32,000 nt of DNA from Candidatus Methanoperedens sp. (GCA_027460535.1 JAPZAR010000031.1:1-32000); one strand, 5' to 3'; shown: positions 6,977-26,730, counted from the first letter of the stretch. Program-made: numbers and translations. Notes: generated by a model from the sequence alone, not told the origin.

Positions 6977-6989
6977 GGAGGTGACAACC

Positions 6990-7912: not shown

Positions 7913-8197
7913 ATGGAATTTAAAGAAATAGATGTACCAGAGGATTCCGTCCAGCAAATTAATTATGAAGGGTCATTTGCTAACGTCAACCTTGATGGGT
8001 TATACGAAGATACGCTTGAGGATATAGAGAAGAAATTGGGATCAGTTCCTGACTTGATGAAGGGTTTCCCCAAGAGAAGACTTATCCATGAATGGCCTTC
8101 ATGGAAGAATGTTGGGGAGATAGACCTGGAAAGATCAAGATATCTTCTAAGTACCGATGAAATTTTAGAAGAAATGTTGAGCAAAAACCAGGGGTAA
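7913..8197 (+). CDS. Hypothetical acidic protein
   Basis: 94-aa ORF with an RBS (aagaggtgaa) upstream. It has only a weak resemblance to the N-terminal part of CMD/AhpD-like proteins (KKLGSVPDLMK..P..L...W), which is not enough to call. Confidence 0.35.
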   Translation: MEFKEIDVPEDSVQQINYEGSFANVNLDGLYEDTLEDIEKKLGSVPDLMKGFPKRRLIHEWPSWKNVGEIDLERSRYLLSTDEILEEMLSKNQG

Positions 8198-9609: not shown

Positions 9610-9611
9610 AT

Positions 9612-10160: not shown

Positions 10161-10181
10161 GTTTTTGGGTGATGAGATACC

Positions 10182-11339: not shown

Positions 11340-11340
11340 A

Positions 11341-12078
11341 ATGAGACTTGAAAATAAGGTTGCAATTATTACTGGGGCAGGAAGCGGTATTGGTAAAGAG
11401 ACTGCACTCCTGTTTGCAAAAGAAGGAGCTAACGTTGTTGTCGCCGATGTAAATGAAAAGGCTGGTGAGGAGACAGTGGCAGAGATCAAGAAAAATGGAG
11501 AGGCATTTTTTGCTAAACTGGATGTAACCAACAGGGAACAATCAAAACAGATGGTTAAAACTACTCTGGAAAAATATGGTAGAATAGATGTTTTGATAAA
11601 TAATGCAGGCATTGTTCAGGATGCCCTCGTAACAAAAATGACAGAGGAACAGTGGGACAGGGTTATTAATATCAATCTTAAAGGGCCTTTTAATTGTATC
11701 CAGGCTGTGGTTGAAGCTATGATCAATCAAGGAAGTGGTGCAATTATCAATACATCTTCCATCGTCGGACTGAATGGCAATGTCGGGCAGACCAACTATG
11801 CTTCAACCAAAGCCGGTCTAATTGGCATGACAAAGACCCTGGCAAAGGAACTTGGGAAAAAGGGGATAAGGGTCAATGCAGTGGCACCTGGATTTATAAT
11901 GACTCCAATGACCTCAAATGTACCTGAAAAAATACTTGAAATGATGAGAGAAAAAACTCCACTGCGCAGGCTGGGTGAACCAAAAGATGTTGCACATGCA
12001 TATTTATATCTTGCTTCAGAAGAGGCGAGGTTTGTTACCGGTGCGGTGCTTTGCGTTGATGGAGGACTCATAATATAG
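11341..12078 (+). CDS. fabG: Short-chain dehydrogenase/reductase, FabG/PhaB-like (candidate acetoacetyl-CoA reductase)
   Basis: TGAGSGIG Rossmann motif, NNAG, and a S...Y..SK catalytic set. The start lies 1 nt after the phaC stop. Confidence 0.8.
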   Translation: MRLENKVAIITGAGSGIGKETALLFAKEGANVVVADVNEKAGEETVAEIKKNGEAFFAKLDVTNREQSKQMVKTTLEKYGRIDVLINNAGIVQDALVTKMTEEQWDRVININLKGPFNCIQAVVEAMINQGSGAIINTSSIVGLNGNVGQTNYASTKAGLIGMTKTLAKELGKKGIRVNAVAPGFIMTPMTSNVPEKILEMMREKTPLRRLGEPKDVAHAYLYLASEEARFVTGAVLCVDGGLII

Positions 12079-12087
12079 GTGAGAAGT

Positions 12088-13266
12088 ATGAATAATGTAG
12101 TTATTGTATCGGCAACAAGAGCCGCAGTCGGGAAATTCGGGGGAATTCTTAAGGATTTTAGCCCAGGACAGCTTGGTTCTGTTGTATTGAAAGATGCCTT
12201 GAAAAGGGGTAATGTTGAATCAAATGACGTTGATGAGGTAATCCTGGGAAATGTTCTTTCAGCAGGTCATGGTCAGAATGTGGCAAGGCAGGCTGCAATC
12301 GGAGCGGGGATTCCAAAAGAGATACCCTCCTATTGCGTGAACAAAGTATGCGGCTCGGGTTTGAAGTCAGTCGTTCTGGGGGCACAATCTATCATGCTCG
12401 GTGATGCAGATGTTGTTCTGGCAGGCGGCGTCGAGTCCATGTCCATGGCTCCGTATGCGCTGAAAAAAAACCGCTGGGGAGCAAAGATGGGAAACGATGA
12501 AGTTGTGGATTTGATGATATATGATGGGCTGTGGGATATTTTCAACAATTACCATATGGGTATAACAGCAGAGAACGTAGCGGAAAAATATAATGTTACA
12601 CGGGAAGAACAGGATGAATTCTCGGCACAAAGCCAGAATAAAGCAGAGGCTGCTATCAAGGCAGGCAAGTTTAAAGAGGAGATTATTCCAGTAGAAGTTC
12701 CCCAGCCAAAAGGCGAGCCTGTGTTCTTTGATACAGATGAGTTTCCCAGATTCGGCACAACGAAAGAGATACTTGCAAAATTAAAACCTGCATTTAAAAA
12801 GAACGGGACAGTAACTGCGGGGAACGCATCAGGAATTAACGATGGAGCCGCTGCGGTTCTTTTGATGTCTGAAGAAAAGGCAAAAGATAAAGGACTTGAG
12901 CCTCTGGCGACTATCAAAAGCTACGGGTTAGGCGGCGTGCCTCCGGAAATAATGGGCATTGGGCCTATTGATGCAAGTAAAAAAGCTCTACAGCGTGCCA
13001 ATATCTCCGCAGGTGAGCTTGACCTGATAGAACTCAATGAAGCCTTTGCAGCGCAGAGCATCGCTGTTATCAGAGAACTGGGTTTTAATCCAGAACATGT
13101 TAACGTTAACGGCGGCGCTATAGCCCTGGGGCATCCCATAGGAGCAAGCGGTGCAAGGATATTGGTTACTCTTCTCTATGAATTAAGGAGAAGGAAAGGC
13201 ACATACGGCCTTGCTGCACTCTGTATCGGAGGTGGGCAGGGTATTGCTATGGTGGTAAAGAGGTGA
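12088..13266 (+). CDS. phaA: Acetyl-CoA acetyltransferase (bacterial-type thiolase II, PhaA/AtoB-like)
   Basis: VVIVSATR...[11 protein letters not shown] (nucleophilic Cys), [31 protein letters not shown]. The ATG at 12088 is preferred; a GTG at 12079 is the alternative. Confidence 0.9.
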
Positions 13267-13270
13267 TATT

Positions 13271-14125
13271 ATGAACATGAATGGAAAAAAATTGGAAGGA
13301 AAAGTTGCTCTGGTCACTGGAGGCTCAAGAGGAATCGGGCGGGCGATTGCCTTGCGGCTTGCGGAAGACGGCGCTGACGTTGTTATCAACTATCAGAACA
13401 CAAGAGAGCATGCCGAGAAGGTATCAAAGCTGATTGACCAGATTGGCATGGCAGATGAACTTGAAAAATTAACCATAAAGATAAACCACATGGATAATAA
13501 AGAGCAAGCAAAGGAAATATCAAAGTTAATAGAGGCTATCGGAAGGCACTCTTATGTATACCAGGCAAACGTCAGTAATCTTGAGCAGGTAAACAGGATG
13601 CGGGACGAAGTGATCGGGCAGTTCGGGAAAATAGACATTCTGGTTAATAACGCAGGAATAGTCAGGGATAAATCTTTTGTCAAAATGACTCCTGATATGT
13701 GGGGAGATGTTATGTCGGTGAACCTGGATGGAACCTTCTACTGCACCAAAGCATTCATAGAAGGAATGCTGGAAAGGAAATATGGCAGGATTGTGAACAT
13801 TTCATCGGTTGTGGGAAGAATGGGCAATTTCGGCCAGGCGAACTATACAGCTTCAAAGGCAGGCATGATAGGTCTTACAAAAGCACTGGCAAAGGAGTTT
13901 GCTGGCAAGGGTATAACTGTAAATGCAATAGCCCCGGGATTTATAGATACTGATATGGTAAAAGGGGTTCCTGATGAAATAATCGAAAAGATTCTTGCCA
14001 AAATACCACTTGGAAGACTGGGGAAGGCATCCGAGGTCGCAGGTGCGGTGGCCTACTTGGCATCACTGGACGGGGATTACATAACAGGTCAGGTGATAGA
14101 TATAAATGGGGGACTTTATATCTGA
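13271..14125 (+). CDS. fabG: Second FabG/PhaB-like SDR reductase, with an internal insertion of about 33 aa
   Basis: TGGSRGIG, NNAG, S...Y.ASK and PGFIDTDM motifs. The extra segment lies between beta2 and beta3 (see finding). Confidence 0.8.
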   Translation: MNMNGKKLEGKVALVTGGSRGIGRAIALRLAEDGADVVINYQNTREHAEKVSKLIDQIGMADELEKLTIKINHMDNKEQAKEISKLIEAIGRHSYVYQANVSNLEQVNRMRDEVIGQFGKIDILVNNAGIVRDKSFVKMTPDMWGDVMSVNLDGTFYCTKAFIEGMLERKYGRIVNISSVVGRMGNFGQANYTASKAGMIGLTKALAKEFAGKGITVNAIAPGFIDTDMVKGVPDEIIEKILAKIPLGRLGKASEVAGAVAYLASLDGDYITGQVIDINGGLYI

Positions 14126-14603: not shown

Positions 14604-17600
14604 TCATTTTCGAACCAGCTTTGAAATCGAGTATAATCTCCACAAAGGCTTTGAATAGAAAAGGTATGCTGCCGTTAATCCGGTTATTAAAGCAAGTATG
14701 ACTGAACCAAGTACGTTGTGGATGACCTTCTTTATGTCGGATACCATTGATTTCTCAGTTATCGTAAAATTTACAGGATAGAACTCCCCCCAATTATTGT
14801 TCCTCTCCATAGCATGTATATAAATTACATGTGCTCCGACTGAAATATTAGTTGTATTTATCTCTGCTGTAACATCCTCTACCTGCGAGTCATATGTACC
14901 ATTTATCAGGCCAAGCGGTGTTCCATTCCCGGAAGTGCCCATTCTATCCATAAAATACTCGGCTGCCCTTATTTTCATCTTATAACCTGCCATTGCCCTC
15001 GCAGTCAGTTTTAACTTTTCGCCTTTGACAGCTTCGATATTATCCAGAGCCGCCTCCCTTATCACCGGTGAAACCAGAAATCTTTTTAGATTGTGTGATT
15101 GCAGGATGTGACAGGATTCGCAATTCTGTTCCAGCGCATGTGGCTCGTCGCTGATATTTATTGCCCCAAAATTTGGATTTTCCTGATAGATGTGACAGGA
15201 TTTGCAAGATCTTGGTGTAGTGTATGTTGGAACATGCGACTGCGGCTCTTGGCTGTCCAAAGTGTGGCATGCCCAGCATGCTTTATCAATCGAATCCGAC
15301 AAAAGGGTATCAATGGATGCATTTCCGTTCAATCTGTCGTGCTTTCCTAATCTTGATGAAACTGCATCAAAATTAGGAATATTAAGTTTTCTTGATGTAT
15401 CATGGCAGTTAACGCAATCAGCCCACATCCTTTGATCGGTATACAGGTTCGGTATGTGAAGATTTTCCGGTACTTTCCCCACTATGAAGGTATCATTGGG
15501 AAAAAGCCAGCTGCTATTATACCCAAAAGCTGTGGTGTTGGCGGTAGTTTTCATTATCGAGGGTGAAATCGCCAGCACGTCCTTAAGTATTACGAAATTT
15601 GGATTTGCCTGAACAACTGACGTAAGGTTTGCGCTGAAAATTGTTACATTGATATCTTGGTATCCTTTATATCTGATTGGACGGGTATAACTAAACTCAG
15701 AACCGCTGGTAACTGCCCAATCCTCGACAACGCTATTGTTAATCATTAAAGCCAGCAATGCCTGTTTGCTATCAGTACTAACGTCATTAAGTTTCAGAGA
15801 AATGTTCTCTCCAAGGTTCCACGTTTCCCCCACCTTTAGATATTTCTGTAACGAGGGAGAGGGAAGGAATGTCCCAAAATCGGTGTTGATCTGGTTTAAA
15901 ACATAATCGTCGCCATTATAGTATATCTTACTTTTATTTTCAGATATGAAATCAACGAATACATTGGTGAAATATATGATATCATTATTGGGGTTTTCTT
16001 CTAGATCTCTGTCAATAACCAGATACCGTTGTTTTTCTGGAGAATACCGGTACAGATGACAGGCAAAGCACGCAGTGCTGTTGGTTTCTGCATGGACTCT
16101 AGCTGTCCTGAATCCACTGAACTGAATGAGGCTTTGATTTGCGCCTTTGAATATTGATGTTATATTCAGGATAATAATAGGCATCTTGAACGTTCCATTG
16201 TCTATAGTAGTATATTCCTCATAGTTATATTGAGAGCCAACACCTATTGAGAATTCATCTACAATACTATAGTTCTTTAAAAGCTGAATTAAAGCCTCAC
16301 TCCTTTCTGAGGAGATCTCCACCACTTTCAAAGAATATCCATTACCGAGATATACGCTCTCTCCCTCAAAAGCTGTTAGTTTATTTCGTTCTTTTTCAAG
16401 TTCAATAAGCGAGGTTGTATTCTTGTATATTAAAGTTGCATTGCCCCAGGCTTCACTATTGTTTTTAACCAGATGGCAATAGGTGCACTTGAAAGAATCA
16501 ATTAAATTATCTGTCGACGCGTAATGTGATGTAAGAGCCAGATCCGTATTATTATCCGTTATCACCAGACTGTTTAGATGGCAGATTTGGCATTGTACTG
16601 AAGTGGTTATATTATAATTTGTAGCATTATTTTGATTACCATTTAGGCTTGCATTCTGGAAATGCGAATAAACCATAGGCTCTTGATAGGGGGATTGTGA
16701 GAGTGAATGGCAGTCATTGTTGTTACAGTTTTTTGGAGTTTTGTAATTTAGTGGATGCCCACCTGCAGGCTGTGCATTCTCACTTCCATCCCCATCTCCA
16801 TGGCAAGCCCAGCAGCGGAGATTGTTGCTGTTTAAAGAAGTTATAGCATTTGCATTCAGAGTCCTATGTACCGCTTTATCGTCATTGGCGGCTGAAAAAT
16901 TAACATGGTATGGCGCAGCTCCTCCAATATCGTGACAGCTAATGCAATTTTTGTTACCCCCTAAACCCATGGTACTATCGTGGAAAGTTGGAGGAGTTCC
17001 GCCGCCGCGCACATGGCAGCCATAGCATTCTGTGCTGGCTGTAAATGGAGTATGGTTCAAGGCAACAAAGGAGATTCTGGGATCATTTGGTGCCCCCCAT
17101 ATACTATTTCCACTGTTATTGTAATGGCAAAAGGCGCAATCCTTTGATTGGATAAGGTTATTGGTTGTTCCATAATGAGATACCCGGTCAAATATGTTAA
17201 AATAAGAGGCATTCGTATCTACACTGTTGCTATGGCAGGTAGTACAGCTCGTGGATATGTTAATGTCTTTACCATTTTGTATGTGCTCGCTAACCAAAGG
17301 TGCATTGAAAAGATTGCTGACATGACAATCTGAACACATTTTTACCAGGCTTAGATCTATTGGATGGATTTTTGGAGGAGTGCCATCCCAGTGGCAGGCA
17401 TAACAAGCATAGTTCAAATCATTTACATTGTTCACTCGTCCATGCATACTGTTATTTAAGGAAGTAAGATTTACGTATGGCATCCCCGCCAAAATAGTCC
17501 CATGACAATCAATGCAGTTTTCAAACCCTGCCATTGCGGCAGGCATCAGGTTTATAGTGATAAATAGGAGCAGACTGAAAATTATAGATCTGTTATTTAT

Positions 17601-17609
17601 GACATGCAT
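14604..17609 (-). CDS. Membrane-anchored multiheme c-type cytochrome (16 heme motifs) with two inserted S-layer-like beta domains
   Basis: N-terminal signal peptide. By eye I count 15 CxxCH plus 1 Cx4CH (CNNNDCH). Two paralogous non-heme domains lie at about aa 405-505 and 585-700. There is a C-terminal TM helix (VLGSVILALITGLTAAYLFY) with a basic tail. Confidence 0.9.
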   Translation of the reverse strand: MHVINNRSIIFSLLLFITINLMPAAMAGFENCIDCHGTILAGMPYVNLTSLNNSMHGRVNNVNDLNYACYACHWDGTPPKIHPIDLSLVKMCSDCHVSNLFNAPLVSEHIQNGKDINISTSCTTCHSNSVDTNASYFNIFDRVSHYGTTNNLIQSKDCAFCHYNNSGNSIWGAPNDPRISFVALNHTPFTASTECYGCHVRGGGTPPTFHDSTMGLGGNKNCISCHDIGGAAPYHVNFSAANDDKAVHRTLNANAITSLNSNNLRCWACHGDGDGSENAQPAGGHPLNYKTPKNCNNNDCHSLSQSPYQEPMVYSHFQNASLNGNQNNATNYNITTSVQCQICHLNSLVITDNNTDLALTSHYASTDNLIDSFKCTYCHLVKNNSEAWGNATLIYKNTTSLIELEKERNKLTAFEGESVYLGNGYSLKVVEISSERSEALIQLLKNYSIVDEFSIGVGSQYNYEEYTTIDNGTFKMPIIILNITSIFKGANQSLIQFSGFRTARVHAETNSTACFACHLYRYSPEKQRYLVIDRDLEENPNNDIIYFTNVFVDFISENKSKIYYNGDDYVLNQINTDFGTFLPSPSLQKYLKVGETWNLGENISLKLNDVSTDSKQALLALMINNSVVEDWAVTSGSEFSYTRPIRYKGYQDINVTIFSANLTSVVQANPNFVILKDVLAISPSIMKTTANTTAFGYNSSWLFPNDTFIVGKVPENLHIPNLYTDQRMWADCVNCHDTSRKLNIPNFDAVSSRLGKHDRLNGNASIDTLLSDSIDKACWACHTLDSQEPQSHVPTYTTPRSCKSCHIYQENPNFGAINISDEPHALEQNCESCHILQSHNLKRFLVSPVIREAALDNIEAVKGEKLKLTARAMAGYKMKIRAAEYFMDRMGTSGNGTPLGLINGTYDSQVEDVTAEINTTNISVGAHVIYIHAMERNNNWGEFYPVNFTITEKSMVSDIKKVIHNVLGSVILALITGLTAAYLFYSKPLWRLYSISKLVRK

Positions 17610-17688: not shown

Positions 17689-18753
17689 TCACCTCTTCCG
17701 TCCGAACATATAACCTGCCAAAAGCAATATCATTGCCATGGCGGCATTAAATCCCGGTGTCTTCTTTACAGGTATTGTCACTGCAGTTGGCCCTGGTTTT
17801 TGTGGTGTTTCTTCCCCCGCTACAGGTGTTTCAGCCGGTACCACCACGCCCTTCAAGCTTGTTATTGCAAATGGCGAGAAGGAATTTGTCTTTGCCTCAA
17901 AGTGAGTGAAAAGCTCATCTTTTCCTTTGGATCCAGTTTCCAGGAGTTCCCATTTTGTTCCATCCCATCTTTCAAGGGCAACATCGGTATCTTTGAATTC
18001 GTTCGATATGAGCCATGAATTCTCGACCTTGAATCTTACAGTAGCTTCTTTTATGTTCTTTGGAACTGCGAAGCCAGATGTTCCGACCCAGATATTGACG
18101 TATCTATAAACGGTCCCAGGTGCGCTTGTTTTTACAAGTGTTGACGTATCTTTTAGAAGTTCGATCTGAGTATTTATCAACCCTGCACTGACAGCCCCAA
18201 TGATTTCGAGCTGATAGACTGGGAGTATTGGAGTAGTGAAATTGTATCTTGTCGGCAGATCCTTGGCTATGAACTCTTCTTTGGACTCTTTAGCCTGGAT
18301 ATTTGAGTAATTCTCACCTGATGTCCCGCCGCCACCGCCGCCGCCTGATGGGCCACCACCACCGCCACCTGATGGACCACTGCCGCTGCTTCCTGTTGAA
18401 AGTTGTAGATTTTCCTCCTGGTCATCTAAAGCTGCTCTTGGTCCGGTCCATGAAGCCGACTTCCCGGTAGCAGTTGCTGTTATCGTCATGGAATCGCCTG
18501 CATTGACACTGACTGGCAGGTTTGCGAGCTGGAATACATAATATCCGCTGGCAATACCTCCAGTTGTCTGAGTCACATTTGCGGTGGTAGTACTATTTGA
18601 ACCTCCAGAAACTGAAAGCACTACTGTCACACCATTTATGGGCGTGCCATCGGTATCAGTTACCCGGCCGAATACAGTAAATGGGTTCCCATCCGATGCC
18701 ATTACAGGTATTATTGCTAACAGGAAAAAAATTGAGAAGAGAATTTTTTTCAT
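17689..18753 (-). CDS. PGF-pre-PGF domain surface protein with a PGF-CTERM archaeosortase sorting signal
   Basis: The likely start is MKKILFSIFFLLAIIPVMA at 18753, 10 nt after the upstream cytochrome stop; the track start 18810 overlaps that gene. Domain order is CarboxypepD_reg-like domain, poly-Gly linker, ENYSNI...YRYVNIW...FSPFAI (PGF-pre-PGF pattern), a Pro/Thr linker, then TPGF plus TM plus GRKR at the C-terminus. Confidence 0.8.
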   Translation of the reverse strand: MKKILFSIFFLLAIIPVMASDGNPFTVFGRVTDTDGTPINGVTVVLSVSGGSNSTTTANVTQTTGGIASGYYVFQLANLPVSVNAGDSMTITATATGKSASWTGPRAALDDQEENLQLSTGSSGSGPSGGGGGGPSGGGGGGGTSGENYSNIQAKESKEEFIAKDLPTRYNFTTPILPVYQLEIIGAVSAGLINTQIELLKDTSTLVKTSAPGTVYRYVNIWVGTSGFAVPKNIKEATVRFKVENSWLISNEFKDTDVALERWDGTKWELLETGSKGKDELFTHFEAKTNSFSPFAITSLKGVVVPAETPVAGEETPQKPGPTAVTIPVKKTPGFNAAMAMILLLAGYMFGRKR

Positions 18754-18763: not shown

Positions 18764-21700
18764 CTATTTTGTTCCCACAAATGTGTACGTGTTTCCATTG
18801 GTGGTACCATTCCCTTTTATAAAGTAAGGTTTGTAGCCTGCCATGGTGAAATTGGTTCCTGAATAAAATCCGACACCTCCACTCGGCACTATGATCTGGT
18901 AACTGACCCATATCTGGTTGGTTGAATCCCATTTGAGCACTTTTGAGACGCCAGGAATACCTGTTGAAGATGTATACAGGAGATTTCCTGCATACAACGT
19001 CGGGTTCGGGTTAAGCCAAAGCACGATGAGATTATATTCTGATACCAGTGTGTCGGTAGTGTAGTATGTGGTGCCGCCGCTTGTCAAATTCGGGGCGATC
19101 GATCCATTAAAAACCGACCTTGCACCGTGGCATTTGTTACAATCTATAGTCTTACTGATATTATGGAACGTCCAATCTGTAGCTGTACTGGTTCCTCTGT
19201 AAGTTGTCCATTTATTGGTGCTTTGATTCCTGTAGACACCACCTTTGACTTTTCCTGTACTCACATTAACCACATAGTCTGTACTATTCCTTACAAAAGT
19301 ATCGTCATGACATGCATCGCATGTTACATTCCCGTGGCTTGAATATTCCCTGAAGTTAGAGGTAGTGTGCTCGGATGTTGCTACATGGCATGCTTCGCAA
19401 CCTGTTTTAGTTGTGGCAATGTTATTGACCTCGAACGTATGTTCTGAACCATTATTGATGGTTGAATTCATATGGCAGTCAGCACATGTGAAACCCAGGG
19501 AAGTTTTATGGGATCCGTCATAATAAATATCACGGTCAGAGATGTGATGAGAACTTCCGTTGTGGCATTTCTCGCACAACTCCGTAACATTCCCCACTGT
19601 ATCATAGACAGGCGACCCGGCTGAACTGCTTGAGGTGGCATTGTAAAATGCAATGTATATCGGTGATGTGCCATTACCACTATATGTATCGTTGTGGAGG
19701 TTATGACAAACCCTGCACTGGACACCTTGGTTATTTGATGTGTTATAACGCGCGCTGTTTGACTGATTATACATCGGAGGTGAATGACATTTTAAGCAGT
19801 AGCCGCTGTAATATGTTCCATGAAGACTTGATTGAGCATGGCCGCTCTGGTTCCATGCTATGGTTTCATTCTCTATCTTAGGTTGTCCTCCACCAGTTCC
19901 ATTGTGGCATGTCAAAGTACATGTATAATACGGGAACATGCCTTTACCAACACCGCCATTGGTGCTGAGGGGAATACCTGTAAGATTGTAGTTATAGAAG
20001 TTGTACTCAACAGTCAGATTATGGTCATGGGTGTATAGCGATGAGTTAAGGGCGAACTGCTGCGTTGTGTTCGCAAAGTGGCACTGCGTGCAGTCTGCAT
20101 AATTCTGCCCGTACCCGTGATTTCCATGGCTTTCACTAAGGTTAACACCTTCAACGTGACAATTCCTGCATGAGTTGCTTTCATTCACGATGTAACCTGT
20201 GTAACCATTATGCTGTGTATCATAGCCAGCATGGCAATCTGTGCAGTTTGGTGCAGCGACATTCATTGTCTGGTTATGATTTGAGTTGTTGACTGCACTG
20301 GCGTATGAAGAGTGGCATTTGACGCAACCAATGTCTCCAAATGTCGGCGCTAATAATGAGCTCGTTACAGCGGACTTGGTACCATGACACTTATCACAAC
20401 TAACATCCTTACTTATATTGTGCAATGGCCATGTTGTTGGAGCTGCAGACCCATCTTTGTAGCTGGATATTAATCCTGTTGCTGTGTCATTATAGAGACC
20501 ATAAATTATTTTGACTCCCGTACTGTTAAGGCCGACTGCATAGCCAGTTGCATTCCTTGCAACTGTCTTGTCGTGACAGGCTTCGCATGTAACTTTACCT
20601 GTATGGTTCGCTGTGAACTGGAATGTATGGTCTCCTGATTTATGGCACACTTCACACCCAGTTACACCTGTTGTTAAGTTCGTGACTTCGAACATATGTG
20701 ATTGGTAATTGAATCTTGCACCACTAGTAGTATTCAAATGACAATCAGCACAATCAAAGCCAACTTGGGTCTTGTGAGTTCCTGCAAACTTGCTGTCGTG
20801 GCCATCTCCATAATGGCATTTTTCACACAAAACTGTAGCATTGGCAACCGTGTCATAGATTGTGTAACCCGCAAGAGAACTTAAAGTTGCGTTATAGAAC
20901 GCCAGTATTCCTGTCCCTGGACTACTAAACGATCTATTGTGGAGGTTATGACATACCCTGCAATTAATACCCTGCCAATCGGCTACTGGAATAAGTGTAC
21001 CCGATGATGCACTCGCATTATAATTCAGAGGCGACTTGCATTTGGCACAGGAATTCTTCTGGTCAGTGGGGGGTTCTACCAATGACTGGGCATGCGCACT
21101 CTGGACCCAGGTTTGTGATGCATTGTCGACTTTTACATTGCTACCATCGTGATGATGGCATGATGCCGCATCGCATGAATAGTATGGAAACGTTCCTACG
21201 CCCACACCACCATTACTCTTTAGAGGCATCTGTATCGTTCCTGTTAGATTGTATTGATAGAAGTTACGGATAATTGTCAGATTGTGGTCATGTACATAGA
21301 GTGACGCATTCAAACTGAAAGACGTGTTCATATTTGCAAAGTGACACATCGTACAATCATCGGTTGATGTATGTTTTTCATCTTTGGTTTGATGGCACCC
21401 TGAATTCCTGCACGTGTTACTTTCGTTCACTGTAAAACCCTTGGCTCCTGTTGTATGACCGTAGCTGGGTACATATCCTACGTGACAGTCAATACATGCA
21501 GGCGCGCTTGCATTCAGGGTCTGGTTATGCTTTGAGGCGTTATATGCAGTGGCGTATGTAGGATGGCAATCTGCACATACGAGGCCAGTCGTAATCGTGC
21601 CGTTAAATACAGAGGTTGCATTGTGGCATTTGCTGCAATCTACACTCTTGGTTATATTATGCAGGGGCCATGTTTTAGGTTTACCTCTGTCCAATACATA

Positions 21701-22969
21701 AGTAGTCCAATTACTGGTCGGGGTCGGTTTCCACAGACCGTAATTACCGTCACTTGATACGGAATAGTTCGTAGCATTTACTGTTGTAAAAGTTTGATCA
21801 TGGCATGCTACGCATTCAACTTTACCTGTATGCATTGACGTGAACTGGAATGTATGGTCTTCTGATTTATGGCACACTTCACAGCCGGTCACATTTGAGG
21901 TAGTGTTCTTGACCTCGAATGTATGGAACTGCGTTAAATCACTTTCGATTGATCTGTTCGCATGGCAACTGGCACAGGTGAAATTCGCACCAGCTGGGTC
22001 TTTGTGAATTCCTGCAAACTTACTGTCATGAGAGGTAGTTGTGTGGCATTTCTCGCACAATTCGGTAGCATTGTGAACCTGTACATAGACCGGGTAGCCC
22101 GCACGAGAGCTTAGAGTTCCATTATAGAACGCTAGCGGTTCTCCATTCACCGGGCTGCTATAAGAAACATTATGCATGTCATGGCATACCCTGCACTGGA
22201 TGCCCTGCCAGTCGGCCGCTGCCACAGGTGCGCTCTGGTTGGCACTTACGTTATAGTTGGGCGGTGACTTGCATCTGGCACATGACATCGTCTCACTGCC
22301 GGTATATGATTGTGCATGTTTACTCTGGTTCCAGCCGATGGTTATATTTTCCTTACTTTTGCTTGTATGGCAGGTCAGAGTACAGGTATAGTACGGGAAC
22401 ATGCCCTTGCCTACATGGCCGTCGGCGCTGAGGGGCATTCCTAAAAGATTGTAATTATAAAAATTGTATTCAACGGTGAAATTATGGTCATGTTGGTAAT
22501 AAGTATGAGAACTAGAAAGAGGAAACACTTTAGTAGTATTGGCGAAATGGCATTTTGTGCAGTCTGCGGGACTAGCTGCATTGCCGGTATGGGTGTTTGT
22601 ATCAACAGGACGCGATCCACTGGTTGCATGGCATCCAGGTTGACCATTTTGTAACGTATTACAGGTTGTCACTGTGACCTGGTATCCGATATAACCGCTA
22701 ACTGTATGCGTGCTAGTATCATATGCCCCCCTGTGGCAAATAAGACAGGCAGTTGTTTGGGAGTTATCTATATTATCATGTTGCCTCGGTAAAAAAGTTA
22801 TCGCGCTGTTGGAAGCGATGGCTGAAACATATGCAGGATGGCAGGCATTACAAGCATTATTTGTAACATCTTGAGCCGTATAGGTTGCAATCGCTTCCGG
22901 TATGGCTACCGCCACAGCCAATAAAATCAAACACATCAATATGCCGTTTCGTTTCATAGTACCCATCAT
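18764..22969 (-). CDS. Giant secreted multiheme c-type cytochrome, 1401 aa, about 36 heme-binding motifs in three 12-heme modules plus a C-terminal non-heme domain
   Basis: Signal peptide (ILMCLILLAVAVAIPEAIA). By eye I count 29 CxxCH, 2 CxxCK, 2 Cx3CH, 2 Cx4CH and 1 Cx9CH. There is no C-terminal TM. Confidence 0.9.
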   Translation of the reverse strand: MMGTMKRNGILMCLILLAVAVAIPEAIATYTAQDVTNNACNACHPAYVSAIASNSAITFLPRQHDNIDNSQTTACLICHRGAYDTSTHTVSGYIGYQVTVTTCNTLQNGQPGCHATSGSRPVDTNTHTGNAASPADCTKCHFANTTKVFPLSSSHTYYQHDHNFTVEYNFYNYNLLGMPLSADGHVGKGMFPYYTCTLTCHTSKSKENITIGWNQSKHAQSYTGSETMSCARCKSPPNYNVSANQSAPVAAADWQGIQCRVCHDMHNVSYSSPVNGEPLAFYNGTLSSRAGYPVYVQVHNATELCEKCHTTTSHDSKFAGIHKDPAGANFTCASCHANRSIESDLTQFHTFEVKNTTSNVTGCEVCHKSEDHTFQFTSMHTGKVECVACHDQTFTTVNATNYSVSSDGNYGLWKPTPTSNWTTYVLDRGKPKTWPLHNITKSVDCSKCHNATSVFNGTITTGLVCADCHPTYATAYNASKHNQTLNASAPACIDCHVGYVPSYGHTTGAKGFTVNESNTCRNSGCHQTKDEKHTSTDDCTMCHFANMNTSFSLNASLYVHDHNLTIIRNFYQYNLTGTIQMPLKSNGGVGVGTFPYYSCDAASCHHHDGSNVKVDNASQTWVQSAHAQSLVEPPTDQKNSCAKCKSPLNYNASASSGTLIPVADWQGINCRVCHNLHNRSFSSPGTGILAFYNATLSSLAGYTIYDTVANATVLCEKCHYGDGHDSKFAGTHKTQVGFDCADCHLNTTSGARFNYQSHMFEVTNLTTGVTGCEVCHKSGDHTFQFTANHTGKVTCEACHDKTVARNATGYAVGLNSTGVKIIYGLYNDTATGLISSYKDGSAAPTTWPLHNISKDVSCDKCHGTKSAVTSSLLAPTFGDIGCVKCHSSYASAVNNSNHNQTMNVAAPNCTDCHAGYDTQHNGYTGYIVNESNSCRNCHVEGVNLSESHGNHGYGQNYADCTQCHFANTTQQFALNSSLYTHDHNLTVEYNFYNYNLTGIPLSTNGGVGKGMFPYYTCTLTCHNGTGGGQPKIENETIAWNQSGHAQSSLHGTYYSGYCLKCHSPPMYNQSNSARYNTSNNQGVQCRVCHNLHNDTYSGNGTSPIYIAFYNATSSSSAGSPVYDTVGNVTELCEKCHNGSSHHISDRDIYYDGSHKTSLGFTCADCHMNSTINNGSEHTFEVNNIATTKTGCEACHVATSEHTTSNFREYSSHGNVTCDACHDDTFVRNSTDYVVNVSTGKVKGGVYRNQSTNKWTTYRGTSTATDWTFHNISKTIDCNKCHGARSVFNGSIAPNLTSGGTTYYTTDTLVSEYNLIVLWLNPNPTLYAGNLLYTSSTGIPGVSKVLKWDSTNQIWVSYQIIVPSGGVGFYSGTNFTMAGYKPYFIKGNGTTNGNTYTFVGTK
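19127..22852 (-). repeat. Intragenic triplication: three paralogous modules of about 417-425 aa (first Cys of each at aa 40, 465 and 882)
   Basis: The motif order is conserved in all three modules. DNA-level identity persists, e.g. tgaactggaatgtatggtct.ctgatttatggcacacttcaca at about 20614 and about 21841 (offset 1227 bp). Confidence 0.9.
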
Positions 22970-23194
22970 CTATCCATTGTTCTGCTTGAAATGGCGTTTT
23001 TTTCTGCAGATATGAATATAATATCGTTTATGTACTACCCCTACTTATATATTTCGCATGATAGTAATTATAATGATGAAATATTTAATGATTATAAGTC
23101 TTTATGGATGTTACTGACTTTTGCCAGAAAGACATTTAGAAACAGATAAATTCTTAAATCAAAAATGCTATTATGCCCCTGTAGAGGTGCTAAC

Positions 23195-24466
23195 ATGAAA
23201 TTGATTGCGTATTTATTTTCACTATTGATCCTGGCGGCGCCGGCGGTCGCCTCGGATTGGAGCCAGTTCGGATATGATAGTTCTCATTCTGGATTTACAA
23301 CGGATAGCGTTGTACCTCCGCTTGTCTTGAAATGGACTGCAAACCTCTATTATAATACGGATTCATCCCCTGTAGTCGTGAACGGGGTTGTTTATGTAGG
23401 CTCAAACGGTGGAGTCCATGCGCTCGATGCAGAATCCGGAAAAGAGATCTGGAGGTCCCCGACAGATGGATTCATAGGAGCTGTTCCCATGGTCATGGAT
23501 GGGACACTGTACGTTGGGGGGAATGACGAACACTTTTATGCAATCGATATAAAAGATGGCTCTAAAAAATGGATCTATAAGGATGCTACCGGTGGGTTCG
23601 TTTCCTCCGCCACTGCTGCCGATAATCTTATTTATGTAGCATCAGAAGACGGCTCTCTCTATGTATTTAATCCCCAGGTCGGAGAACCTTCGTGGACTAA
23701 ATTAACAGGGAAAAGCATAGATTCGTCTCCTGCCGTTTCAAATAACACGGTTTACTTCGGGAATGACAATGGGGCTTTTTTTGCCCTTGATGCCGGGAAT
23801 GGCAGGGAGATGTGGCATTATTACACAGACATAGGTATGATAAAATCTTCACCTGCTGCTGCAAATGGCATCCTGTTCTTCGGTTCAAATAATGGAAATG
23901 TGTATGCTCTGACGGATAAAGGGGCTTTGAAATGGAAATTTTCGACAGGGAGCGATGTGGTATCATCTCCTTCGGTTAAAGATGGTACGGTCTTTGTAGG
24001 CTCAAAAGATTTTAACTTTTATGCTATTGATTCTGCAACAGGAAACATGAAATGGAAATTCCAGACAGCGGGCTTTGTTGATGCTTCATCTGCGATTTCA
24101 AATGATGTCATTTATTTCGGGTCGAAAAATAATTTCATCTATGCTCTTGATACTAATACAGGGAATCTCCTCTGGAAAAACTTGACTGGAATGGATACCA
24201 CAGATTACATAACCTCGCCTGCTATCTCCGGTAATATGCTTTATGCAGTAACCCATAGCGGAAAAGTATATGCATATTCTATTGCAGGGGAGGTTCAGAC
24301 AACTCCGGCCATAACACAGACAATAAAGGCTACAACAATATCGCCTACGCCAACACCTGTCCAGACACCGGCAGTTACCACCCCACAAAAGACGCCGGGA
24401 TTTGAATATGCAGCATTAATACTGTTAATAGCAGCGATAGTAAGGAAAAGAATTAATTCTAAATGA
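23195..24466 (+). CDS. PQQ-like (BamB-type) beta-propeller repeat protein with a PGF-CTERM sorting signal
   Basis: The start at 23195 (MKLIAYLFSLLILAAPAVA) has a gaggtg RBS. About 8 repeats of the SSPAV.NG.VYVGS.DG..YALD...G...W type are present. A Thr/Pro linker is followed by TPGFEYAALILLIAAIVRKR. Confidence 0.85.
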   Translation: MKLIAYLFSLLILAAPAVASDWSQFGYDSSHSGFTTDSVVPPLVLKWTANLYYNTDSSPVVVNGVVYVGSNGGVHALDAESGKEIWRSPTDGFIGAVPMVMDGTLYVGGNDEHFYAIDIKDGSKKWIYKDATGGFVSSATAADNLIYVASEDGSLYVFNPQVGEPSWTKLTGKSIDSSPAVSNNTVYFGNDNGAFFALDAGNGREMWHYYTDIGMIKSSPAAANGILFFGSNNGNVYALTDKGALKWKFSTGSDVVSSPSVKDGTVFVGSKDFNFYAIDSATGNMKWKFQTAGFVDASSAISNDVIYFGSKNNFIYALDTNTGNLLWKNLTGMDTTDYITSPAISGNMLYAVTHSGKVYAYSIAGEVQTTPAITQTIKATTISPTPTPVQTPAVTTPQKTPGFEYAALILLIAAIVRKRINSK

Positions 24467-24605: not shown

Positions 24606-25532
24606 ATGTTCAGGATACGTCTGCGTGATTTTATAATTACCAGTGATGACTGGATATTCGCGGTTGCGGATTATTGTCACGAGAAGGGCATCCGTTCTGT
24701 TCTCAGATACGTGCCTGACCCAGAGGGTTCAAGAGGAACGCGTAAAAAATTCCGCAAGCTGGACTTCGACGATGCCTTCAGCTTTATGAAAGCGAATCGC
24801 CCTCAGTGGGTGGATGATGTACATATTGTCCCATGGGATTGTGTCAAACAGGTGCTTGCTCCAGAGAAAAAACTCCCTATTTTGCTGAAAGACAATAAGA
24901 AACTGAGAGACATAGTAAACACTCTCCTGAAAGGGGATGTGCCACTTGAAAAAATGGGAGTGACGGGGTCTCTACTTGCCGGCTTGCAGAACGAATTCTC
25001 AGATATAGATTTCATCGTATATGGAAAATCCTGGTTCCAGGCGCGGGATATCATAGCAGAGGCAAAAAAGGAATGTTCTACCGTTAAAGAGATAAGCGAT
25101 GAAATGTGGCATGATATTTACAGGAAAAGGAAGCCCGAGCTTTCCTTTGATGAATTTCTCTGGCATGAGGTAAGAAAAGGAAACCGCGGCATGGTGGATG
25201 GGACATATTTTGACCTCCTTTATGTAAGGGACTGGGAAGATATCACCCGGTGTCTGAGGGGAAAAGATATAGGTATGGAAACGATCCGGGCAAAGGTCAC
25301 GAATGCCGATTTTGCATTTGACAGCCCCGCTATCTTTGAAATCGACCATCCCGAGATAAGCTGCGTGCTGTCCTATACCCACACCTATGCAGGCCAGGCA
25401 CTGGTAGGGGAAAGGATCGAGGCTCGGGGAATGGTAGAGGTCGTGGGTAATATCAAAAGGCTCGTTGTTGGGACATCAAGAGAACCAAAAGGGGAATGGA
25501 TACGTTCCCTCACGCTTCTTGAGAAGGAATAG
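24606..25532 (+). CDS. Predicted nucleotidyltransferase (Pol-beta superfamily; archaeal COG1665-like)
   Basis: GVTGSLLAGLQNEFSDIDFIVYG is the G-S ... D-x-D minimal NTase motif. It is preceded by an N-terminal domain of about 115 aa. Confidence 0.55.
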   Translation: MFRIRLRDFIITSDDWIFAVADYCHEKGIRSVLRYVPDPEGSRGTRKKFRKLDFDDAFSFMKANRPQWVDDVHIVPWDCVKQVLAPEKKLPILLKDNKKLRDIVNTLLKGDVPLEKMGVTGSLLAGLQNEFSDIDFIVYGKSWFQARDIIAEAKKECSTVKEISDEMWHDIYRKRKPELSFDEFLWHEVRKGNRGMVDGTYFDLLYVRDWEDITRCLRGKDIGMETIRAKVTNADFAFDSPAIFEIDHPEISCVLSYTHTYAGQALVGERIEARGMVEVVGNIKRLVVGTSREPKGEWIRSLTLLEKE

Positions 25533-26730
25533 GCTCTTTCCCGTATCCTATTTCTTCCTTTGTCAAATAGCATGCCGGGTCATCCGCCCAGACGTTGCCA
25601 TATATTGCCTCTGCACGCACGCGGAAGTTCCCGTTACATATTTCGAACCATTTGCATCGGGCGCACCTGTCCGCATTTGCTTTTATCAGGGGCTTCCTGT
25701 TCTTGAGACCAGCCATCAGTGGATTGCTTTTATCTGTCCATATCTCGCTGAATTTCCGCTCCTTTACGTTACCGAAGGAATAATGTCTCCAGAACTGGTC
25801 TGCATGTACCGATCCGTCCCATGAAACACAGGCTATGCCGATGCCTGAGGAATTGCCCTGGTTCATCTGGAGAAGTTCATACACCTCTGCCGCACGTTTG
25901 GGATATTCTTTCAGCAAACGGAAGTAAACATAAGGACCGTCTGCGTGGTTATCTACAGTCAACACCTCAATAGGGAAGCCATTATCATGCAAAGCCTTTG
26001 TCCTGTCCATAATGAGATCGAGCGTCTTTCGGCTTTCTTCATGTGATAGTTCTTCTTTTACCAGTTTTGAGCCGCGCCCTGCATATACAAGATGGTAAAA
26101 ACATACTCGGGGGATTTTTTCCTTTTCAAGCAGGTCGAATATGGCCGGGATATCCTTCACGTTCTTCTTATTGATAGTGAAGCGCAGGCCCACCTTAATG
26201 CCTTCTTCAAGGCAGTTGCGCATACCCTGCAATGCCAGATCGAATGAGCCTTTTACGCCCCTGAATTTATCGTTGGTCTCTCTCGTCCCGTCCAGCGAAA
26301 CACCCACGTACGAAAGCCCAATCTCTTTCAAGACCTTCGCCTTCTTTTTGTCGATCAGTGTACCATTCGTGGAGATGACCGCACGCATCCCTTTTGACCT
26401 TGCGTACAGCGCAAGCTCAGGTAGATCAGGACGCATGAGCGGCTCACCGCCGGAGAAAAGGATTACTGGCGCGCCGAACTGTGCAAGGTCGTCGATGAGC
26501 TCCTTTCCTTGCTGCGTCGTTAGCTCGTTCTTATACTCAATGTCCTTTGACTGGGCATAACAGTGCACACATTTCAGGTTGCAGCGCCTGCCCATGTTCC
26601 AGACCACTACCGGTTTTTTATCCTTTGAGAACTGCAATAAATGCGAGGGAAGTTTCCCGGAATCGCGCCCGTACCTGAGAGCGTCTGAGGGTTCAACGGT
26701 TCCGCAGTAAAGCTTTGAAATTCCTATCAT
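25510..26730 (-). CDS. Radical SAM/SPASM enzyme, NirJ-like; candidate alternative heme biosynthesis AhbC/AhbD
   Basis: CNLKCVHCY (Cx3Cx2C) and a C-terminal Cys-rich SPASM region (CARCKWFEICNG...ACY). The N-terminal LYCGTVEPSDALRYG motif is, as I recall, typical of the NirJ/Ahb group. Confidence 0.6.
   Translation of the reverse strand: MIGISKLYCGTVEPSDALRYGRDSGKLPSHLLQFSKDKKPVVVWNMGRRCNLKCVHCYAQSKDIEYKNELTTQQGKELIDDLAQFGAPVILFSGGEPLMRPDLPELALYARSKGMRAVISTNGTLIDKKKAKVLKEIGLSYVGVSLDGTRETNDKFRGVKGSFDLALQGMRNCLEEGIKVGLRFTINKKNVKDIPAIFDLLEKEKIPRVCFYHLVYAGRGSKLVKEELSHEESRKTLDLIMDRTKALHDNGFPIEVLTVDNHADGPYVYFRLLKEYPKRAAEVYELLQMNQGNSSGIGIACVSWDGSVHADQFWRHYSFGNVKERKFSEIWTDKSNPLMAGLKNRKPLIKANADRCARCKWFEICNGNFRVRAEAIYGNVWADDPACYLTKEEIGYGKEPIPSQEA

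What the first reader, a model, noticed from the sequence alone, without database searches (positions are those of the whole stretch)
18764..22969. 1401-aa cytochrome is a triplicated 12-heme module in which heme-motif spacing varies at homologous positions
Modules start at aa 40, 465 and 882. Each has 12 Cys-...-Cys-His/Lys sites in the same order, which indicates tandem duplication of a cassette of about 1.25 kb.

At homologous site 3 the motif is Cx9CH (CNTLQNGQPGCH), Cx4CH (CRNSGCH) and CxxCH (CRNCH) in modules 1, 2 and 3. At site 5 it is Cx3CH (CTLTCH), Cx4CH (CDAASCH) and Cx3CH (CTLTCH). Paralogs inside one polypeptide therefore sample different heme-attachment loop lengths. This is a natural experiment in non-canonical heme ligation and raises the question of which maturation system attaches them.

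The last 100 aa or so (nt 18767-19070) form a heme-free beta-rich domain of unknown role.
Basis: seen in the sequence. Interest (0 to 1): 0.75.

Follow-up and report, generated by a model that had tools for sequence, protein, structure and literature searches.

The report
36-heme modular cytochrome of Methanoperedens
A methane-oxidising archaeon encodes a secreted, heavily glycosylated protein predicted to carry 36 hemes, made of three old copies of a 12-heme building block in which only a few heme-attachment sites tolerate loops of different length; it is an uncharacterised variant of the known archaeal "electron wire" cytochromes, not a new kind of system.

Summary
ORF 18764-22969(-) encodes 1401 aa. 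All 72 mature cysteines lie in 36 C-x(n)-C-[H/K] motifs, arranged as three 12-site modules that are 50-52% identical, with a DNA period of about 1.23-1.26 kb.

The variant motifs are positionally homologous. The gene comes from a Candidatus Methanoperedens genome.

The module is family-wide and essentially confined to Methanoperedens-like archaea. It occurs once, twice or three times per protein.

Across 47 modules the variation is site-specific:
- Site 3 is Cx2, Cx3, Cx4 or Cx9 (25/3/18/1 modules), with at least 13 changes on the tree.
- Site 5 is always Cx3 or Cx4.
- Site 6 is CxxCK in 43 of 47.
- Sites 2, 4 and 7-12 are always CxxCH.

Cx9CH is unique to this protein and looks like a 5-residue insertion into a Cx4CH.

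The triplication is old. Each module is closer to modules in other proteins (57-76%) than to its siblings.

The gene heads a conserved three-gene cassette, followed by a PGF-CTERM surface protein and a 16-heme S-layer cytochrome. This supports a role as an extracellular electron conduit. Heme attachment was not tested.

Extended motifs and CcmF paralogs in ANME cytochromes are already in the literature. Both structure predictions failed. Interest is moderate.

The parts
18764..22969 (-). CDS of the 36-motif multiheme c-type cytochrome. It is 1401 aa. The NCBI model starts 4 codons later and gives 1397 aa.
   Evidence: ORF list. Motif scan. 100% match to P0001 from a Candidatus Methanoperedens MAG.
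22886..22969 (-). N-terminal signal peptide, aa 1-28, ending AIA|TYT. It holds the only non-motif Cys.
   Evidence: It is the only hydrophobic stretch in the protein. Sequence verified. The cleavage site is inferred.
21602..22885 (-). Module 1, aa 29-456, with 12 heme motifs.
   Evidence: HMM domain boundaries. Alignment. Coordinates verified.
20357..21601 (-). Module 2, aa 457-871, with 12 heme motifs.
19100..20356 (-). Module 3, aa 872-1290, with 12 heme motifs.
   Evidence: The Pfam MtrC/MtrF II-IV domain hit falls at aa 930-1092.
22628..22663 (-). Site 3 of module 1: Cx9CH (CNTLQNGQPGCH). It is unique among 47 modules and is read as a 5-aa insertion into a Cx4CH.
   Evidence: Orthologous modules have CNQPYCH, CNQAQCH or CKGTNCH.
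21392..21412 (-). Site 3 of module 2: Cx4CH (CRNSGCH).
20156..20170 (-). Site 3 of module 3: CxxCH (CRNCH).
22367..22384 (-). Site 5 of module 1: Cx3CH (CTLTCH).
   Evidence: Site 5 is Cx3 in 41 of 47 modules.
21155..21175 (-). Site 5 of module 2: Cx4CH (CDAASCH).
19904..19921 (-). Site 5 of module 3: Cx3CH (CTLTCH).
22268..22282 (-). Site 6 of module 1: CxxCK (CARCK), followed by SP.
21035..21049 (-). Site 6 of module 2: CxxCK (CAKCK), followed by SP.
19784..19798 (-). Site 6 of module 3: CxxCH (CLKCH), one of only 4 of 47 modules with His here.
18767..19099 (-). Heme-free C-terminal domain of 111 aa. It is conserved at the C-terminus of orthologs and of a different cytochrome (P0068). It has no Pfam or PDB match.
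   Evidence: AlphaFold pLDDT of 45 is too low to use.
17689..18753 (-). Downstream gene 2 of the cassette: a secreted PGF-pre-PGF domain protein with a PGF-CTERM anchor. It starts 10 nt after the cytochrome stop codon.
   Evidence: NCBIfam TIGR04213, E = 3e-45. Orthologs are 66-67% identical and in the same position in L001 and L002.
14604..17609 (-). Downstream gene 3 of the cassette: a 1001-aa S-layer-domain cytochrome. It has 16 heme motifs, one between the two S-layer subdomains, and a C-terminal transmembrane helix.
   Evidence: Pfam S-layer domain. Motifs. Orthologs are 61% identical in L001 and L002. It fits the ANME MHC-A description in PMC9012536.

Best explanation
**What it is**
- The gene encodes a secreted, heavily N-glycosylated extracellular multiheme c-type cytochrome of a Candidatus Methanoperedens archaeon.
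- It is built from three anciently diverged copies of a 12-heme module specific to Methanoperedens-like archaea, followed by a heme-free C-terminal domain.

**How it most likely works (inferred, not shown)**
- The 36 hemes form one continuous chain.
- The chain extends electron transfer outward from the cell surface.
- It probably receives electrons from the co-encoded 16-heme S-layer cytochrome that spans the S-layer.
- It may be held at the surface through the C-terminal domain and/or the co-encoded PGF-CTERM protein.

**What the motif variation means**
- The variation in Cys-Cys spacing is loop-length polymorphism at a few structurally permissive sites.
- Site 3 is freely variable. Site 5 is fixed at 3-4 residues.
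- The other sites are constrained to CxxCH.
- Site 6 carries a conserved CxxCK, so that heme is probably Lys-ligated.

**Heme attachment (inferred)**
- Attachment would be by the archaeal Ccm system (System I*).
- The extra CcmF paralogs known in ANME genomes may contribute.
- None of these genes lies in the window.
For: **Shown by the sequence**
- 36 motifs use every mature Cys.
- The three modules are in register.
- There are 13 conserved non-motif His columns per module, enough to supply distal ligands for 12 hemes.
- The only hydrophobic segment is the N-terminal signal peptide.
- There are 69 N-x-S/T sequons against 25.7 +/- 4.3 in shuffles. Thirteen sequon positions are conserved per module. 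Both point to an extracellular glycoprotein.

**Family and origin**
- The protein is 100% identical to a Methanoperedens MAG protein. All homologs come from Methanoperedens or ANME-2.
- The full module is found in only about 20 of 1.84 billion cluster representatives.
- Among GTDB species genomes it is found only in Methanoperedens-like archaea.
- The module is present once, twice or three times per protein.

**Site-specific variability**
- Site 3 spacing is 2/3/4/9 in 25/3/18/1 modules, with at least 13 changes on the tree.
- Site 5 spacing is 3/4 in 41/6 modules.
- Site 6 is K/H in 43/4 modules.
- Sites 2, 4 and 7-12 are invariant.
- Relatives also carry Cx5, Cx6 and Cx11 pairs and no free cysteines.

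**Continuity of the heme chain**
- The c7/c3 Pfam hits and the GSU1996 (3oue) match span the junction between modules.
- Sites 8-11 align to NrfB hemes 1-4 with hhalign probability 91.5%.

**Gene context**
- The three-gene cassette is conserved in three genomes with different flanks.

**Literature**
- ANME S-layer cytochromes are proposed as conduits, and modified motifs and CcmF paralogs are noted (PMC9012536).
- Surface cytochromes mediate extracellular electron transfer in Methanoperedens (PMC10542353).
- The extended CX14CH loop of OmcZ is solvent-exposed and functionally relevant (PMC11208441).
Against: - There is no experimental evidence for heme occupancy, localisation, glycosylation or expression of this particular gene.
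- Both AlphaFold models were unusable (pLDDT 44.9 and 45.4). Heme-chain continuity, surface exposure of the site 3 and 5 loops, and axial ligation at site 6 are therefore inferred only.
- The Cx9CH is seen in a single MAG-derived sequence with no close relative to confirm it.
- No anchoring mechanism has been demonstrated.
- The near-invariant CxxCK could point to a catalytic rather than a purely conductive role.
Confidence: 0.7

Rival explanations
1. The protein is, at least partly, an enzyme. The conserved CxxCK-S-P sites would be Lys-ligated catalytic hemes, as in NrfA-type nitrite reductases or octaheme reductases. The remaining hemes would feed electrons to two or three active sites. The variable loops at sites 3 and 5 would tune substrate access.
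For: - CxxCK is conserved in 43 of 47 modules and sits in a conserved W-x-x-S-x-H-A...C-A-K-C-K-S-P context.
- Kletzin et al. note that motif variations usually occur in enzymatic multiheme cytochromes (PMC4429474).
- There are weak sequence hits to OTR (1sp3, E = 2e-4), MccA and NrfA chains.
- The NrfA heme-1 motif CWSCKSP looks locally similar. This rests on my own knowledge of the E. coli sequence.
Against: - hhalign of the module profile against E. coli NrfA gives only 8% probability, and it aligns sites 9-10 to NrfA hemes 4-5. It does not align site 6 to heme 1.
- All NCBIfam hits to Nrf, OTR and HmcA families are far below their cut-offs.
- K is replaced by H in module 3 of this very protein and at least 3 times on the tree.
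- At the homologous site in relatives the residue is H, M or V. That does not suggest a conserved active site.
- There are 13 conserved non-motif His for 12 hemes, which leaves room for six-coordination at site 6.
Confidence: 0.12
2. The three modules arose by a recent tandem triplication within this gene. The motif differences would then be fresh divergence among young paralogs.
For: The three modules are adjacent, have the same length and are in the same order. The DNA periodicity is about 1.25 kb. Some relatives do show young intragenic duplicates, for example P0006 m1/m2 at 70% identity and the clustering of P0008 m1-m3.
Against: - Intra-protein identity is only 50-51%.
- Each module has closer relatives in other proteins: m3 is 76% identical to P0002 m3, m2 is 66% to P0003 m2, and m1 is 57% to P0003 m1. 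The three fall in separate clades.
- Orthologs in other Methanoperedens genomes already have three modules.
Confidence: 0.05
3. The Cx9CH at site 3 of module 1 is not a working heme site. It could be a decayed site, or an assembly or sequencing artefact in a metagenome-assembled genome. The protein would then carry 35 hemes.
For: It is a singleton among 47 modules. It is known only from this MAG sequence; the cluster has 2 members, both from the NCBI record. Long-spacing motifs such as CX15CH need dedicated lyases in bacteria (PMC3601427).
Against: - Both cysteines and the His are retained, the frame is intact, and no other free Cys exists in the protein.
- The flanking residues match orthologous Cx4CH motifs (CN..QP.CH), as expected for a clean 5-codon insertion.
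- Relatives carry Cx5, Cx6 and Cx11 pairs in the same all-Cys-paired pattern.
- CX11, CX14, CX15 and CX17 motifs bind heme in other cytochromes (PMC11492766; PMC11208441).
Confidence: 0.15

Closest known systems
Large ANME multiheme cytochromes (ANME MHC types A, B and C of Chadwick et al. 2022, PMC9012536; first noted by McGlynn et al. 2015)
   Same: - Same organism group.
- Tens of heme motifs, including motifs with extra residues between the cysteines.
- Predicted extracellular role in electron transfer.
- The gene lies next to an S-layer-domain cytochrome that fits type A, with one heme motif between the S-layer subdomains and a C-terminal helix.
   Different: - This protein has no S-layer domain, no transmembrane helix, no peptidase-M6-like domain and no pectin-lyase domain. 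It therefore fits none of the three defined types.
- I did not find its 12-heme repeat unit, or the site-specific pattern of motif variation, described in the papers I searched.
GSU1996 of Geobacter sulfurreducens (a dodecaheme 'nanowire' made of four c7-type triheme domains; PDB 3oue holds one fragment)
   Same: - A modular, repeat-built, elongated multiheme electron-transfer protein.
- The Pfam Cytochrome_C7 hit scores 100 bits over 4 stretches.
- phmmer matches 3oue with E = 0.002 across a module junction.
- The concatenation-of-modules idea is discussed in PMC11492766.
   Different: - The repeat unit here has 12 hemes (about 415-428 aa), not 3.
- It contains Cx3CH, Cx4CH and CxxCK sites.
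- The protein is archaeal, extracellular and glycosylated.
- Sequence similarity is marginal.
MtrC/OmcA/MtrF outer-membrane decaheme cytochromes (Pfam PF22113, domains II/IV)
   Same: A Pfam hit of 63 bits, above the 30-bit cut-off, covers sites 3-7 of module 3. Both are cell-surface terminal reductases used in extracellular electron transfer.
   Different: - There is no four-domain architecture with beta-barrel domains and no lipoprotein signal.
- Only one of the three modules reaches the reported hit.
- MtrC hemes are all CxxCH (my own knowledge).
NrfB pentaheme electron-transfer subunit and NrfA nitrite reductase (CxxCK catalytic heme)
   Same: hhalign aligns sites 8-11 to E. coli NrfB hemes 1-4 at 91.5% probability. 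Site 6 has the CxxCK motif type known from NrfA (PMC3601427).
   Different: - The NCBIfam scores for NrfB and NrfA are far below their cut-offs.
- hhalign against NrfA gives 8% probability and does not pair site 6 with the NrfA catalytic heme.
OmcZ nanowire cytochrome (CX14CH loop) and its Methanoperedens and Borg homologs
   Same: It is a precedent for an extended Cys-Cys loop at one heme site that is solvent-exposed, functionally relevant, and present or absent among homologs (PMC11208441).
   Different: No sequence relationship to OmcZ was detected. No OmcZ or OzpA genes lie in the window. The variation here is among repeated modules and across a gene family.

Membership tests
Multiheme c-type cytochrome | Several CxxCH-type heme-attachment motifs in one polypeptide | tested here: met
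   36 C-x(n)-C-[HK] motifs use all 72 mature cysteines. Pfam Cytochrome_C7 (100 bits), c3_2 and PF22113 score above their cut-offs.
Multiheme c-type cytochrome | Export signal, because heme attachment happens outside the cytoplasm | tested here: met
   There is an N-terminal hydrophobic signal-like segment and no other hydrophobic stretch. No dedicated predictor was available.
Multiheme c-type cytochrome | Covalently bound heme at the motifs | not testable with these tools
   This needs heme-peptide mass spectrometry, heme staining or a structure.
ANME MHC type A (Chadwick 2022) | S-layer domain with a heme motif in its linker, plus a C-terminal transmembrane helix | tested here: not met
   There is no S-layer Pfam hit and no C-terminal hydrophobic segment in the 1401-aa protein. 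The neighbouring gene 14604-17609 does meet these features.
ANME MHC type B / type C (Chadwick 2022) | N-terminal peptidase-M6-like domain (type B) or pectin-lyase-like domain (type C) | tested here: not met
   Pfam and NCBIfam scans show only cytochrome families.
MtrC/OmcA decaheme family | Two pentaheme domains (PF22113) alternating with beta-barrel domains, on a lipoprotein | tested here: not met
   There is one PF22113 stretch (aa 930-1092, 63 bits), and no beta-barrel domains or lipobox were detected. The architecture differs.
NrfA-type cytochrome c nitrite reductase | Pentaheme core homologous to NrfA, with the CxxCK heme as the catalytic heme 1 | tested here: not met
   hhalign probability is 8%, and site 6 is not aligned to heme 1. 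There is no Pfam PF02335 hit for the window protein. The NCBIfam NrfA models are not matched.
NrfB-like pentaheme wire | Profile similarity over the pentaheme domain | tested here: inconclusive
   hhalign gives 91.5% probability over 4 hemes. The NCBIfam TIGR03146 score is 16.5 bits against a cut-off of 166.6.
Cytochrome c7 polymer (GSU1996-like) | Tandem triheme c7-type domains | tested here: inconclusive
   Pfam Cytochrome_C7 matches 4 stretches. The match to 3oue has E = 0.002. This covers only part of each 12-heme module.
Methanoperedens 12-heme module family (defined here) | A module of about 415 aa with motif order 2-2-[2/3/4/9]-2-[3/4]-K2-2-2-2-2-2-2 | tested here: met
   There are three full-length matches to the module HMM, each scoring about 730 bits. 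47 of 48 family modules share the pattern.

The most novel reading that the evidence does not exclude
The 12-heme module is a structurally new cytochrome domain in which one conserved heme (site 6) has a switchable proximal-ligand slot. The residue is Lys in Methanoperedens modules, His in a few modules and in bacterial relatives, and Met or even Val at the homologous C-A-x-C-X-S-P site in other relatives. The loop lengths at sites 3 and 5 would act as tuning elements for redox potential or acceptor docking. On this reading, archaeal surface cytochromes use motif variants such as CxxCK, CxxCM and CxnCH as a design vocabulary in electron conduits, not only in enzymes. Cx9CH would then be a new working heme-attachment spacing, and its maturation would need a CcmF paralog.
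Probability: 0.15. Interest if true: 0.7.

Novelty: new variant of a known kind. Interest (0 to 1): 0.42.

Why it matters
- Methanoperedens archaea oxidise methane while passing electrons to metals, electrodes or partner cells. The proteins that carry those electrons beyond the S-layer are not characterised.
- This gene gives a clearly delimited 12-heme building block, and a conserved three-gene cassette that links it to an S-layer cytochrome. That is a concrete target for purification and cryo-EM.
- The site-by-site map of where Cys-Cys spacing can and cannot vary is a ready-made set of natural variants. Site 3 takes 2, 3, 4 or 9 residues and site 5 takes 3 or 4, while eight sites are always CxxCH and site 6 is CxxCK or CxxCH. 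These variants could be used to test the substrate range of the archaeal Ccm system and its CcmF paralogs.
- The same map allows a test of what a Lys-ligated heme does inside an apparent electron wire.
- None of this changes the general picture of ANME extracellular electron transfer.

Tried and rejected
1. **AlphaFold2 of module 3 plus the C-terminal domain.** A 36-row alignment gave mean pLDDT 44.9. The C-terminal domain alone, with 11 rows, gave 45.4. Both are too poor to use, so no fold search was run, because its matches would be meaningless.
2. **Sequence and profile searches of PDB.** Only marginal hits appeared (3oue, 1sp3, MccA, NrfA, NrfB). There were none for the C-terminal domain.
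3. **The idea that site 6 (CxxCK-S-P) is the NrfA catalytic heme.** This was tested by hhalign against E. coli NrfA and rejected at 8% probability.
4. **Homolog search with the C-terminal domain alone.** It returned a single fragment. A local HMM search was more useful.
5. **Maturation genes and OmcZ/OzpA genes in the window.** None were found among ORFs of at least 120 aa.
6. **Link to the 37-heme cytochrome in the OmcZ cluster of Ouboter et al. 2024**. The gene context differs and no link was established.
7. **Borg or other extrachromosomal origin.** The window carries tRNAs, PHA-synthesis genes and a ribosome-biogenesis gene on both strands. This fits a chromosome.
8. **Tandem Repeats Finder.** It does not detect the 1.25-kb modules, because they are too diverged and the period exceeds 500. 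The repeat finder does detect them.

Full report
**1. Checking the observation**

The ORF 18764..22969 on the minus strand is real and encodes 1401 aa. A motif scan finds 36 C-x(n)-C-[H/K] motifs:
- 29 CxxCH.
- 2 CxxCK, at aa 230 and 641.
- Cx9CH at aa 103.
- Cx4CH at aa 520 and 599.
- Cx3CH at aa 196 and 1017.

Of the 73 cysteines, 72 sit in these motifs. The remaining one (C13) lies in the N-terminal signal-like segment.

Aligning the three modules gives 50-52% identity, with all 12 motifs in the same columns. This includes sites 3, 5 and 6.

At DNA level, conserved patches recur with spacings of 1227-1263 nt at 63-83% identity. The "beta-rich" label for the tail is the exception, because it rests only on a low-confidence model.

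**2. Origin and family**

The protein is 100% identical to a hypothetical protein of a Candidatus Methanoperedens MAG. All 31 other homologs retrieved come from Methanoperedens, ANME-2 or unnamed metagenome contigs. The window also carries tRNA genes, a PHA-synthesis cluster and housekeeping genes on both strands. This fits a chromosomal region.

An HMM built from the three modules finds the same unit in varying copy number:
- Three copies in the roughly 1380-aa orthologs P0002, P0003, P0005 and P0006, and in P0008.
- Two copies in P0009, P0010, P0011, P0014 and P0016.
- One copy in many proteins, where it is fused to S-layer, carboxypeptidase-regulatory-like or other heme regions.
- One copy standing nearly alone in P0035 (462 aa).
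- No four-module protein was seen.

An exhaustive profile search of 1.84 billion cluster representatives finds the full-length module in only about 20 clusters. Beyond those, only sub-module matches appear: positions 7-95 (c7-like), and roughly 140-405 in small bacterial cytochromes. Among GTDB species genomes the full module occurs only in Methanoperedens-like archaea. Remote partial relatives occur in Anaerolineae.

**3. Pattern of motif variation**

Over the 47 modules that have 12 motifs:

| Site | Motif | Count | Minimum changes on NJ tree |
|---|---|---|---|
| 3 | Cx2 / Cx3 / Cx4 / Cx9 | 25 / 3 / 18 / 1 | 13 |
| 5 | Cx3 / Cx4 (never Cx2) | 41 / 6 | 3 |
| 6 | CxxCK / CxxCH | 43 / 4 | 3 |
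| 1 | one Cx4, otherwise CxxCH | 1 / 46 | not computed |
| 2, 4, 7-12 | CxxCH | 47 / 47 | 0 |

The variation is thus confined to particular sites and recurs across the family. It is not a peculiarity of this polypeptide.

The Cx9CH is unique. Orthologous module-1 sequences read CNQPYCH, CNQAQCH or CKGTNCH, so CN-TLQNG-QPGCH is best read as a clean five-codon insertion into a Cx4CH.

Other proteins of the family contain Cx5 (8 cases), Cx6 and Cx11 pairs. In each case both cysteines are otherwise unpaired and are followed by His. That argues these extended pairs are used.

Each module has 13 conserved non-motif His columns, enough for distal ligands of 12 hemes.

**4. Age of the triplication**

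The window's modules are 50-51% identical to each other. To modules in other proteins they are:
- Module 1: 57% identical to P0003 module 1.
- Module 2: 66% identical to P0003 module 2.
- Module 3: 76% identical to P0002 module 3.

They fall in different clades of an NJ tree. The three-module architecture therefore predates the divergence of these genomes. Elsewhere in the family modules have duplicated more recently (P0006 m1/m2 at 70% identity; P0008 m1-m3 cluster together). Duplication, and possibly conversion, is therefore an ongoing family trait.

**5. Context**

The gene is followed after 10 nt by a PGF-pre-PGF domain protein with a PGF-CTERM anchor (TIGR04213, E = 3e-45).

Next comes a 1001-aa cytochrome with the following features:
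- 16 heme motifs.
- Two S-layer subdomains with one heme motif between them.
- A C-terminal helix.

This matches the published description of ANME MHC-A (PMC9012536).

The same three genes, 61-67% identical, occur in the same order in two other Methanoperedens contigs whose flanks differ from the window's.

Features of the 1401-aa protein itself:
- It has no hydrophobic segment apart from the signal peptide.
- It has 69 N-x-S/T sequons against 25.7 +/- 4.3 expected from shuffles.
- It has 13 sequon positions conserved across modules.
- Its 111-aa C-terminal domain is conserved in the orthologs and at the end of a different cytochrome, P0068. That domain has no Pfam or PDB relative.

**6. Relationship to known folds**

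- Pfam reports Cytochrome_C7, c3_2 and one MtrC/MtrF domain II/IV stretch.
- NCBIfam hits (DmsE, HmcA, OTR, NrfB) are all far below their cut-offs.
- phmmer and hmmsearch against PDB give only marginal hits: GSU1996 fragment 3oue, OTR 1sp3, MccA and NrfA/NrfB.
- hhalign of the module profile aligns sites 8-11 to E. coli NrfB hemes 1-4 at 91.5% probability.
- hhalign gives only 8% probability against NrfA, and it does not pair site 6 with the catalytic heme.
- Both AlphaFold2 runs were unusable (pLDDT 44.9 and 45.4). No fold comparison was attempted.

**7. Mechanism**

Shown:
- A secreted polypeptide with 36 potential heme sites.
- A modular architecture.
- Conserved linkage to an S-layer cytochrome and a surface-anchored protein.

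Inferred:
- The hemes form one chain. The c7/c3 hits and the 3oue match span module junctions.
- The protein acts as an outward extension of the S-layer conduit for extracellular electron transfer. This process has been shown experimentally to depend on surface cytochromes in Methanoperedens (PMC10542353).
- The loops at sites 3 and 5 are surface-permissive. The precedent is the OmcZ CX14CH loop, which is solvent-exposed, affects reduction of soluble acceptors, and is absent from some homologs (PMC11208441).
- Site 6 is probably a Lys-ligated heme of unknown consequence.
- Attachment would be by the archaeal Ccm system. Chadwick et al. already proposed that extra CcmF paralogs in ANME may handle very large apoproteins or motifs with extra residues. 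Bacterial CxxCK and CX15CH need dedicated lyases (PMC3601427). No such gene is in the window.

**8. Novelty**

- Cx3CH, Cx4CH, CxxCK and CX11/15/17CH are listed motif types (PMC11492766). Cx9CH is not on that list.
- Modular evolution of multiheme cytochromes is an established idea.
- In the papers I searched, I did not find a description of this specific 12-heme module, its restriction to Methanoperedens-like archaea, or the site-specific map of motif variability.
- I rate it a new variant of a known kind, with moderate interest.

Noticed in passing
window 19784-19798, 21035-21049, 22268-22282; proteins P0038, P0040, P0042, P0043, P0048, P0052, P0059: Site 6 lies in a conserved context, W-x-x-S-x-H-A...C-A-[KR]-C-X-S-P. 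Across 170 collected relatives, the residue X in the usual proximal-ligand slot varies. It is Lys in Methanoperedens modules and His in bacterial-like relatives and a few modules. It is Met in six proteins (CAHCMSP, repeated up to 9 times per protein) and Val in one (CARCV, 4 times). I do not know of CxxCM as a described heme motif.
   Followed up: partly
window 1-968 (ORF 85-1701, +, runs off the window start): A 291-nt tandem repeat is present in 3.3 copies at 97% identity. It lies inside a sequon-rich, Cys-free surface-type protein with a carboxypeptidase-regulatory-like domain. This is a recent repeat expansion, in contrast to the old cytochrome modules.
   Followed up: partly
window 8524-14125 (+): A polyhydroxyalkanoate synthesis cluster: two PhaE-like genes, a PhaC-like alpha/beta hydrolase, an SDR reductase, a thiolase and a second SDR.
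   Followed up: no
window 23165-24466 (+): A PQQ/BamB-like beta-propeller protein with a signal peptide and a PGF-CTERM anchor. It is divergently transcribed from the cytochrome gene. It is not conserved next to the orthologs in L001 or L002.
   Followed up: partly
window 25510-26730 (-): A radical SAM protein with a SPASM domain lies about 2.5 kb upstream of the cytochrome cassette. A link to peptide or protein maturation is possible but was not examined.
   Followed up: no
window ~5420-8080: An AT-rich stretch (GC about 0.33-0.39) with no ORF of at least 120 aa. It holds short ORFs, and by eye two of them look like gene fragments. ORF 6761-6976 (+) resembles a proteolipid or c-subunit. ORF 7185-7493 (+) resembles the N-terminus of an electron-transfer flavoprotein beta subunit. 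These may be small genes or pseudogenes.
   Followed up: no
window 14604-17609 (-), aa 295-301: The neighbouring S-layer cytochrome also carries an extended motif, Cx4CH (CNNNDCH), among its 16 motifs.
   Followed up: no
window 18767-19099 (-); P0068 C-terminus: The roughly 110-aa heme-free C-terminal domain is shared with a 986-aa cytochrome that lacks the full 12-heme module. It may therefore be a portable attachment or sorting domain of secreted Methanoperedens cytochromes. Kletzin et al. 2015 also mention a Methanoperedens cytochrome cluster defined by a conserved C-terminus. Whether that is the same domain was not checked.
   Followed up: partly
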